64,000 bases of DNA, taken from assembly GCA_964057225.1 (NCBI GenBank), contig OZ059895.1:6448001-6512000 (forward strand), in the 5' to 3' direction. Positions 19,543 through 20,356 of the stretch are shown in pieces; the first letter of the stretch is position 1; each line of letters begins with the position of its first letter. The notes under the pieces were generated by a model, which worked only from the letters and a program-made list of their open reading frames with translations, had not been told where the DNA came from and made no database searches. Origin of the DNA: Auanema rhodensis (lineage: Eukaryota; Animalia; Nematoda). Made by a program: the position numbers and the translations under genes.

Positions 19543-20356
19543 ATGTTCAAGAGAACCGCGAACCAAGCACTGATCCAGAAGGTGACGTCGTGTTGCATGT
19601 ACATCGAGTACCAGAATTCTTGGATCTCGGTAGTTGTGTTGACGAAACACTATGCGGTCACAACGCTGCACTGTCTCCCCGAATCTTTCCAAGAACTCGG
19701 TCAATCGGTTTCTCTTTGGGACTCGGACGGACAGAACCACAATGCTTACATCCACGGGATGAACAAGCTTTCCGATTATGTGGTTTTCAAGAAGACGGAT
19801 GGAACCTTCGAGTGTATTCCTGAAATGACCTATCCGGCGCTTATGGATCAATACATCGTGGTGGTGAGTAAATAAACTTGATTATTTATTTAGATTAAAT
19901 ATAAATATAATTAATAGAGCAAACTTTGTAAAATACTTTTATAATTCACCATTTATATCACTAATGTTTTTATTTTCAGGGATTCCCGTTTGGTGAAAAG
20001 AAGGCTTCGCTTCGTCTCGGTCATGTTTCGTCACTGTCTGATGGGAGTCGAGGATACTTCTACGGCGATTCCGGTGGACTTCCAGGATTCAGCGGAGGTA
20101 GTAGTAGTAGTAGCAGTAGTAATATTATTTATCACATTTTAGGAGGGGTGTTCTATGCAAGAAATGGAGCTCTGTTCGGCATCGCTCGTGGAAGTGAATG
20201 GGTCGGAAAGGAAACGAAGCAGTATGGAGACGTCTTGGAAATGGTCTCAACTCAAAGTGAGTATAAATTTAATATAGAGTCTTATATAAATTTCATTTTT
20301 TTTCAGTCATTCTCAGCCACATTGAATTCGCCAAACACGAGCCGTTCTCCGTTTAA
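19543..20356 (+). CDS. Cargo gene: intracellular trypsin/chymotrypsin-fold serine protease (wosp-like), 4 exons, 200 aa
   Basis: Exons 19543-19863, 19980-20097, 20143-20256 and 20307-20356, joined by GT-AG introns, give an open 603-nt CDS. Triad H43 (AVTTLHC), D78 (SDYVVF), S145 (PGFSGGGVF); VVGFP motif; no signal peptide. Confidence 0.85.

What the first reader, a model, noticed from the sequence alone, without database searches (positions are those of the whole stretch)
19543..20356. Hidden 4-exon cargo gene: intracellular trypsin-fold serine protease
The ORF track shows only fragments. Splicing three GT-AG introns gives a 200-aa protein with an intact H43/D78/S145 triad and no signal peptide. 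The exons look GC-richer than the intronless Maverick core (not computed), and TTTTCAG directly precedes the ATG (possible trans-splice site). This points to capture from a nematode nuclear genome, possibly not this host. It fits the wosp protease cargo family, a member of which contributed to a selfish toxin in C. briggsae. Family membership and any toxin or anti-defence role are inference.
Basis: partly seen in the sequence, partly recalled or inferred. Interest (0 to 1): 0.85.

Follow-up and report, generated by a model that had tools for sequence, protein, structure and literature searches.

The report
Maverick-borne spliced HtrA-like cargo protease
A complete virus-like Maverick transposon in a nematode carries a four-exon gene, spliced in RNA from near-identical copies, for a predicted HtrA-like protease that lacks the ubiquitin-like head of the known Maverick cargo proteases and was likely passed recently between distant nematodes; no toxin role is shown.

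Summary
Confirmed. Four exons (19543-20356) give 200 aa plus stop, with H43/D78/S145 and no signal peptide. The gene sits in the cargo slot between integrase and TIR of a 16.8-kb Maverick with perfect 361-nt TIRs and a 6-bp target duplication. RNA contigs of near-identical copies skip all three introns. A C. bovis homologue folds like HtrA/DegP (Z about 20) and is predicted to trimerise. A C. japonica protein is identical at 194 of 198 residues, and its gene model reads through an intron 2 that gives the same 15 residues. A host exon matches non-Caenorhabditis nematodes best, so recent horizontal transfer is likely. None of 11 full-length relatives has the ubiquitin-like head; they form their own clade, only about 27% identical to a WASP-like protein. 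No antidote or toxin evidence was found. This is a headless variant of the published Maverick cargo-protease phenomenon.

The parts
4255..4615 (.). Left terminal inverted repeat of the Maverick (starts AGTAGT; 6-bp target duplication AAAAAC outside)
4607..5068 (+). Adenovirus-type cysteine protease (PRO), 153 aa
   Evidence: PF00770 E 8.5e-6
5041..9399 (-). 1452-aa ORF, likely protein-primed DNA polymerase (possibly the divergent pPolB2 class)
   Evidence: position, size and a DTDS motif; no Pfam or PDB hit; class not tested
9790..10770 (+). 326-aa ORF, likely the conserved uncharacterised Polinton ORF
   Evidence: size only; inferred
12011..12898 (-). A32/FtsK-like packaging ATPase
   Evidence: PF04665 E 6e-9; Walker A
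12853..13257 (+). 134-aa ORF, likely minor capsid protein
   Evidence: size and position only; inferred
13766..16108 (-). 780-aa ORF, likely MFUS-1-type fusogen
   Evidence: hydrophobic N-terminus, one C-terminal hydrophobic segment near 708-735, 14 Cys; no Pfam hit; not folded
16158..17408 (+). Major capsid protein, double jelly roll
   Evidence: PF21738 E 5e-46
17483..18817 (-). Retroviral-like integrase with chromodomain
   Evidence: PF00665 E 1e-13, PF00385
19401..19410 (+). Exact EOR-1/PLZF consensus site in a GC-rich patch upstream of the cargo gene; candidate host-type promoter element
   Evidence: consensus from PMC5962631 passage; function untested
19536..19542 (+). TTTTCAG acceptor directly before the ATG; candidate trans-splice site
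   Evidence: RNA contig ends, (weak hint)
19543..19863 (+). Cargo protease exon 1 (residues 1-107; H43, D78)
19980..20097 (+). Cargo protease exon 2 (to the catalytic S145 motif)
20143..20256 (+). Cargo protease exon 3
20307..20356 (+). Cargo protease exon 4 with stop codon
20357..20551 (+). 3' untranslated region, AATAAA at 20488
   Evidence: RNA contigs cover to 20421-20551
20650..21010 (.). Right terminal inverted repeat, followed by AAAAAC

Best explanation
The gene is a four-exon, spliced cargo gene inside a complete nematode Maverick and encodes a predicted cytosolic, predicted trimeric HtrA-like serine protease of one domain, likely moved between distant nematodes by the element. Shown: gene structure, position in the element, splicing of near-identical copies, catalytic residues. 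Predicted on a close homologue: the fold and a trimer built from the N-terminal helix. Inferred: the gene took its introns and codon habits in a GC-richer nematode genome. It carries its own host-type promoter, so the receiving worm would express it from the integrated copy. With no PDZ or ubiquitin-like head it would act as an ungated intracellular protease on host proteins. Most likely it is an accessory effector kept because it helps the element establish or persist, and it decays in some hosts after arrival. The substrate and the benefit are not shown.
For: Element: 361-nt perfect TIRs, 6-bp duplication, INT/MCP/ATPase/PRO hits. The cargo lies in the 1.8 kb between integrase and TIR, the slot described in the Widen preprint. 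Splicing. Fold of P0002 (170 of 198 residues identical): pLDDT 83.8; Foldseek top hits DegS/HhoA/DegP, TM about 0.7; VIA Z 20.5, rmsd 2.5, 177 aligned to MucD and Z 20.1, rmsd 2.8, 181 aligned to AlgW; Trypsin_2 in 8 of 10 aligned members. Trimer of P0002: score 0.86, best of 3 controls 0.27, runs agree in at least 86% of contacts, pLDDT at least 86; the mark was reached by 21 of 30 solved pairs and 0 of 23 monomers (eukaryotes 17 of 29 and 0 of 30). Transfer: 194 of 198 residues identical to C. japonica P0001, and 18 of 18 across the intron 2 read-through. A host USP exon has 15 hits at 51-75%, the named ones Heterorhabditis, strongylids and Diploscapter, none Caenorhabditis. One clade of the six Caenorhabditis rows is rejected (p-AU 0.0006). 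Triad intact in 8 of 11 full-length relatives down to about 57% identity.
Against: No substrate, phenotype or activity data. 3 of 11 full-length relatives have lost one triad residue, and 4 of 5 coding differences in RNA contigs are non-synonymous; both fit neutral decay. The RNA comes from other samples (metatranscriptomes), and whether those copies, or the C. japonica and C. bovis genes, lie in Mavericks was not seen. The trimer pass may reflect memory of solved HtrA trimers (only 1 of 7 eukaryotic cases without a solved relative passed; the calibration used two copies). The host placement rests on one exon and a word-limited search. The AU test group was named after a first tree was seen, and paralogy can also break species monophyly. 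Contamination of the C. japonica assembly is not excluded.
Confidence: 0.55

Rival explanations
1. Neutral hitch-hiker: a nematode protease gene picked up by Mavericks and carried along with no benefit to the element. The transfer is real, but any selection on the protein acted in earlier hosts.
For: Triad loss in 3 of 11 relatives. 4 of 5 coding variants non-synonymous. The Widen preprint reports that cargo regions are poorly conserved and interchangeable, and that only 20% of WASP genes lie near Maverick genes.
Against: The same headless 200-aa design, with conserved active-site and interface motifs, recurs in C. japonica, C. bovis, C. brenneri, C. sp. 36, Auanema, Acrobeloides and Halicephalobus records. 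No broadly distributed host orthologue surfaced: the 21 hits at E up to 1e-10 among 1.84 billion representatives are this clade, its fragments and two longer proteins.
Confidence: 0.27
2. Toxin half of a selfish toxin-antidote or addiction module, working like msft-1.
For: Same fold class and cargo slot as the msft-1 precursor; cytosolic; intact triad; spliced transcript exists.
Against: No antidote-like ORF: the longest stop-free stretch between integrase and cargo is 64 aa, and 63 aa downstream. The msft-1 antidote came from a MULE, and its toxicity needed a derived change after leaving the Maverick. No ubiquitin-like dosage domain. Only about 27% identity to a WASP-like protein.
Confidence: 0.1
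3. The cross-genus identity is an artefact or vertical: the C. japonica record is contamination, or the family is an old host family with patchy loss, and this Maverick captured a local copy.
For: P0001 has no contig data. Host placement rests on one exon.
Against: Cargo GC3 0.57 against host 0.36. C. bovis copies are 86-87% identical, higher than the 70-75% best hits of a conserved host exon. Jeong et al. list a Polinton on a C. japonica scaffold (supplement row).
Confidence: 0.08

Closest known systems
   Same: HtrA-like fold without PDZ, His-Asp-Ser triad, introns, GC-rich slot between integrase and TIR, near-identity including introns across distant nematodes, patchy tree.
   Different: No N-terminal ubiquitin-like domain (200 aa against 325 for MSFT-1). 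Separate well-supported clade from the WASP-like 320-aa protein found, 27% identity over 133 columns. Inclusion in the 235-member orthogroup not seen.
msft-1/tlpr-1 toxin-antidote element of C. briggsae
   Same: Protease of the same fold class with a Maverick-cargo origin.
   Different: No MULE, no antidote ORF, no ubiquitin-like domain, no genetic evidence of drive.
HtrA/DegP/DegS family (Pfam Trypsin_2)
   Same: Fold (Z about 20), triad, predicted trimer that uses the N-terminal helix.
   Different: 16-20% identity; no signal peptide, membrane anchor or PDZ; GFS instead of the usual GNS motif (usual motif seen in bacterial rows).
Crinkler/CR proteins with a ubiquitin-like header and trypsin domain (review PMC5289972, passages)
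   Same: Mobile-element-linked eukaryotic effectors that include trypsin-like domains; distant relatives with 100-170-aa heads appear at E 1e-11 to 1e-4.
   Different: No header domain here; the link is by analogy and was not tested.

Membership tests
Maverick/Polinton (host element) | Terminal inverted repeats and 6-bp target duplication | tested here: met
   361-nt, 100% TIRs; AAAAAC on both sides
Maverick/Polinton (host element) | Integrase, packaging ATPase, adenoviral protease, double jelly-roll capsid | tested here: met
   Pfam hits above cut-off
Maverick/Polinton (host element) | Protein-primed DNA polymerase B | tested here: inconclusive
   1452-aa ORF with DTDS; no Pfam or PDB sequence hit
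Maverick/Polinton (host element) | MFUS-1 fusogen | tested here: inconclusive
   780 aa, hydrophobic start and one late hydrophobic segment; not folded
Trypsin-fold, HtrA-like serine protease | Two-barrel fold closest to HtrA/Deg | tested here: met
   on homologue P0002, 86% identical:
Trypsin-fold, HtrA-like serine protease | His-Asp-Ser triad in sequence order and motifs | tested here: met
   H43, D78, S145; columns align with bacterial HtrA-like rows; geometry not measured
Trypsin-fold, HtrA-like serine protease | Homotrimer | tested here: inconclusive
   predicted, 0.86 against best control 0.27; may be likeness to solved trimers
Trypsin-fold, HtrA-like serine protease | Proteolytic activity | not testable with these tools
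   needs an assay
WASP/wosp proteases | Nematode HtrA-like protease domain without PDZ | tested here: met
   profile match to WASP-like A2, probability 97.6%
WASP/wosp proteases | N-terminal ubiquitin-like domain | tested here: not met
   no extension in 11 of 11 full-length relatives; no room upstream (longest stop-free stretch 64 aa); the model starts with the protease helix
WASP/wosp proteases | Member of the 235-protein OrthoFinder orthogroup (Data S1) | not testable with these tools
   preprint supplements are closed; no named WASP sequence was retrieved; the preprint allows protease domains only 21% identical within the family
WASP/wosp proteases | Intron-bearing gene in the GC-rich Maverick cargo region | tested here: met
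WASP/wosp proteases | Horizontal transfer (near-identity with introns across distant species) | tested here: met
   at protein level only; no DNA or dS comparison
msft-1-type toxin-antidote element | Linked antidote gene | tested here: not met
   no candidate ORF in the cargo region; a small spliced gene is not fully excluded
msft-1-type toxin-antidote element | Maternal-effect harm to non-carriers | not testable with these tools
   needs crosses

The most novel reading that the evidence does not exclude
A third class of nematode Maverick cargo: a headless, trimeric HtrA-like protease that travels with its own host-type promoter and trans-splice site, is expressed from the integrated element, jumped very recently between Caenorhabditis and another rhabditid genus, and works for the element as an intracellular effector against host defence.
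Probability: 0.22. Interest if true: 0.72.

Novelty: new variant of a known kind. Interest (0 to 1): 0.47.

Why it matters
Why Mavericks carry and exchange host-style proteases is open; the known case was studied only after it became a toxin. Here is a compact one-domain version, still inside a complete element, with direct splice evidence and a 98% identical counterpart annotated in another genus. It is a clean test case for asking whether cargo serves the element or merely rides, and it suggests that the ubiquitin-like head is optional. The basic phenomenon (intron-bearing protease cargo moved by nematode Mavericks) is already published, which caps the surprise.

Tried and rejected
No whole genome is held, so copy number, empty sites and host paralogues were not examined. 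Single exons gave no useful Pfam hit (0 of 3). The A1 profile found no convincing PDB sequence relative (3 weak rows). Related-locus scans found nothing: A1 in viral contigs (46 pattern matches, 0 confirmed), A1 in metagenome contigs (260, 0) and integrase in viral contigs (16, 0), so no second locus was seen in context. Exact look-up of 7 core proteins: 0 of 7 in the collection. RNA contigs leave the Maverick core essentially uncovered, but the runs were chosen by the cargo stretch, so this is no evidence that the core is silent. Folding the WASP-like P0060 failed (pLDDT 34.5): its N-terminal strand-helix pattern and lysine positions resemble the MSFT-1 description, but the ubiquitin fold is unconfirmed, and the Atlas search on it did not complete. 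The careful 71-row tree did not finish; the quick tree is cited, and 31 of 102 rows lacking a full triad span were dropped. Peptide motifs and the words serine, trypsin and uncharacterized were absent from the Jeong et al. supplement text. A short non-genomic end on an RNA contig near 19159 could not be placed in the window above chance. The idea that the cargo matures the fusogen was rejected by inference: the cargo has no signal peptide. Post hoc lead only: 4 of 4 differences from C. japonica fall in the 41 predicted interface residues (p 0.002), 4 of 6 with RNA alleles (p 0.02), but 8 of 28 against C. bovis (p 0.18).

Full report
Observation. The + strand holds an ATG at 19543 directly after TTTTCAG and four exons (19543-19863, 19980-20097, 20143-20256, 20307-20356) bounded by GT-AG introns of 116, 45 and 50 nt; their lengths add to 200 codons plus stop. 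Translated exon by exon, they place His at 43, Asp at 78 and Ser at 145, with no signal-peptide-like stretch. Exon GC is 0.49 and GC3 0.57, against 0.29 and 0.21 for ten core ORFs and 0.45 and 0.36 for five Pfam-matched host stretches.

Splicing. Of 22 listed runs, 20 hold the stretch or part of it, six of them RNA. I laid four of those six. Intron 1 is skipped in X15 and intron 3 in X15 and X18, at the predicted GT..AG ends. Intron 2 is not listed as a joint because its repeat was skipped, but one contig each in X15 and X16 bridges it with 8 letters between the laid pieces, exactly the number the predicted junction requires. The X15 contig spans all four exons with three differences. These are other samples, so they show splicing of near-identical copies, not of this insertion. 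Three contigs stop at 19537-19545, and one keeps AG plus three non-genomic letters before the ATG. This fits trans-splicing, but no leader was read. An exact EOR-1 consensus lies at 19401-19410, the only such site in the window (expectation 0.0004 in 300 nt, post hoc; consensus from passages of PMC5962631); its function here is untested.

Context. The gene lies in the 1.8 kb between the integrase start and the right TIR of a 16,756-nt element with perfect 361-nt TIRs and a 6-bp target duplication. Integrase, major capsid, A32 ATPase and adenoviral protease pass Pfam cut-offs. Polymerase, fusogen and minor capsid are assigned by size, position and motifs only. All eight ORFs exceed the intactness lengths given in a passage of Jeong et al., PMC10748475. 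Perfect TIRs point to a young insertion (inference).

The protein. Exon 1 retrieved three proteins among 22 candidates. The C. bovis one (P0002) retrieved 12 among 80, from C. japonica, C. sp. 36, C. brenneri, Auanema, Acrobeloides, Halicephalobus and unnamed sources. P0002 is 170 of 198 residues identical to the window's exons and served as the stand-in for folding: pLDDT 83.8, top solved matches all HtrA/Deg proteases, Z 20.5 (rmsd 2.5, 177 aligned) to MucD and 20.1 (rmsd 2.8, 181 aligned) to AlgW, the same reference the Widen preprint used for MSFT-1. Atlas neighbours are Trypsin_2 clusters. Three copies of P0002 gave a trimer score of 0.86 against a best control of 0.27, with at least 86% agreement of contacts and pLDDT at least 86; the mark was reached by 21 of 30 solved pairs and 0 of 23 monomers, and may come from memory of HtrA trimers. 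The interface uses residues 2-11, which fits the protein being complete from its first helix.

Transfer. C. japonica P0001 matches 194 of 198 compared residues. Its model retains intron 2, and that 15-residue read-through is identical to the window's (18 of 18 with flanks), so even the intron is conserved at the protein level. A host ubiquitin-protease exon 40 kb away gave 15 hits among 20 candidates at 51-75% identity; the named ones are Heterorhabditis, Diploscapter and strongylids, none Caenorhabditis. The host is therefore likely a non-Caenorhabditis rhabditid. Within the 11 full-length relatives, one clade of the six Caenorhabditis rows is rejected (p-AU 0.0006; group named after a first tree; paralogy not excluded).

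Is it WASP/wosp? I read the whole main text of the Widen preprint; its supplements, including the family list, are closed, and the journal version is not held. It defines WASP as an orthogroup of 235 HtrA-like proteases and says the family has an N-terminal ubiquitin-like domain. None of the 11 full-length relatives has an N-terminal extension, although the searches admitted longer proteins, and the upstream region has no stop-free stretch over 64 aa. A profile search of 1.84 billion representatives gave 91 hits. One, P0060 (320 aa, E 5e-7), has lysines at 8, 12 and 25 and a triad near 145/179/252, close to the MSFT-1 numbering, so it is WASP-like by inference; its fold failed. It matches the short family at 27% over 133 columns (probability 97.6%) and falls outside the short clade, which has support 99 and a long stem in a quick tree of 71 of 102 rows. 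The preprint tolerates 21% identity between WASP protease domains, so the short clade could still be inside the orthogroup. It works like WASP cargo; membership is unproven, and one described feature is not met.

Mechanism. Most likely (0.55) the element delivers a self-contained nematode-style gene whose product is an ungated cytosolic HtrA-like trimer acting on host proteins to the element's advantage; the substrate and benefit are inference. Triad retention in 8 of 11 relatives supports an enzyme under selection at some time. Loss in 3 of 11 and 4 of 5 non-synonymous variants among young copies support the rival of neutral hitch-hiking (0.27). A toxin-antidote role (0.10) lacks an antidote ORF, a MULE and any genetic data. 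Artefact or vertical descent (0.08) is weakened by codon composition and by the C. bovis copies.

Literature and scan. Searches for Maverick, wosp, cargo, msft-1, Polinton and Crinkler terms (listings only, apart from the papers named) returned no paper describing a headless Maverick protease clade; most subscription papers are not searched. PMC5289972 and PMC11414722 were seen as passages, PMC10366684 as one uninformative passage, and PMC10748475 as passages, one section and two supplement searches. The scan's own index had no look-alike; four word matches concern other cargo in other genomes and did not change my reading.

Verdict. A real, spliced, likely recently transferred Maverick cargo gene and a headless variant of a published kind. 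Interest 0.47.

Noticed in passing
window 19054-19159: Two short RNA contigs of run X15 lie between the integrase start and the cargo promoter; on the minus strand their end falls at a TTTCAG acceptor with a few non-genomic letters beyond. No ORF seen; possibly a spliced 5' piece of an integrase-side transcript.
   Followed up: partly
window 20307-20362: An X17 contig joins 95 diverged letters onto exon 4 at the same junction, suggesting an expressed relative with the same last intron position.
   Followed up: no
window 20098-20142: Intron 2 is 45 nt and stop-free in frame; the UniRef C. japonica model A0A8R1EA08 reads through it, which puts 15 residues next to the catalytic serine motif and loses the Pfam hit. 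Likely a mis-annotation.
   Followed up: yes
window 5041-9399: The polymerase-sized ORF has no Pfam or PDB sequence hit, as might be expected of the divergent pPolB2 class of Jeong et al.; not tested.
   Followed up: partly
window 10805-11197 and 11405-12010: Two unassigned intronless ORFs (130 aa with weak helix-turn-helix hits; 201 aa) in the Maverick core.
   Followed up: no
window 40021-40108 and 45312-45399: Perfect 88-nt inverted repeat 5.2 kb apart, with a further 45-nt pair inside; possibly a second DNA transposon.
   Followed up: no
window 46416-64000: Host genes on the minus strand: RING finger, GCD14 tRNA methyltransferase, ESCRT-II subunit, ubiquitin protease with zf-UBP.
   Followed up: partly
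P0047 (Panagrolaimus) and P0081: Distant relatives carry other heads: a TDP-43 N-terminal-like domain, and a head reminiscent of Crinkler headers (recalled resemblance), suggesting header shuffling on this protease lineage.
   Followed up: no
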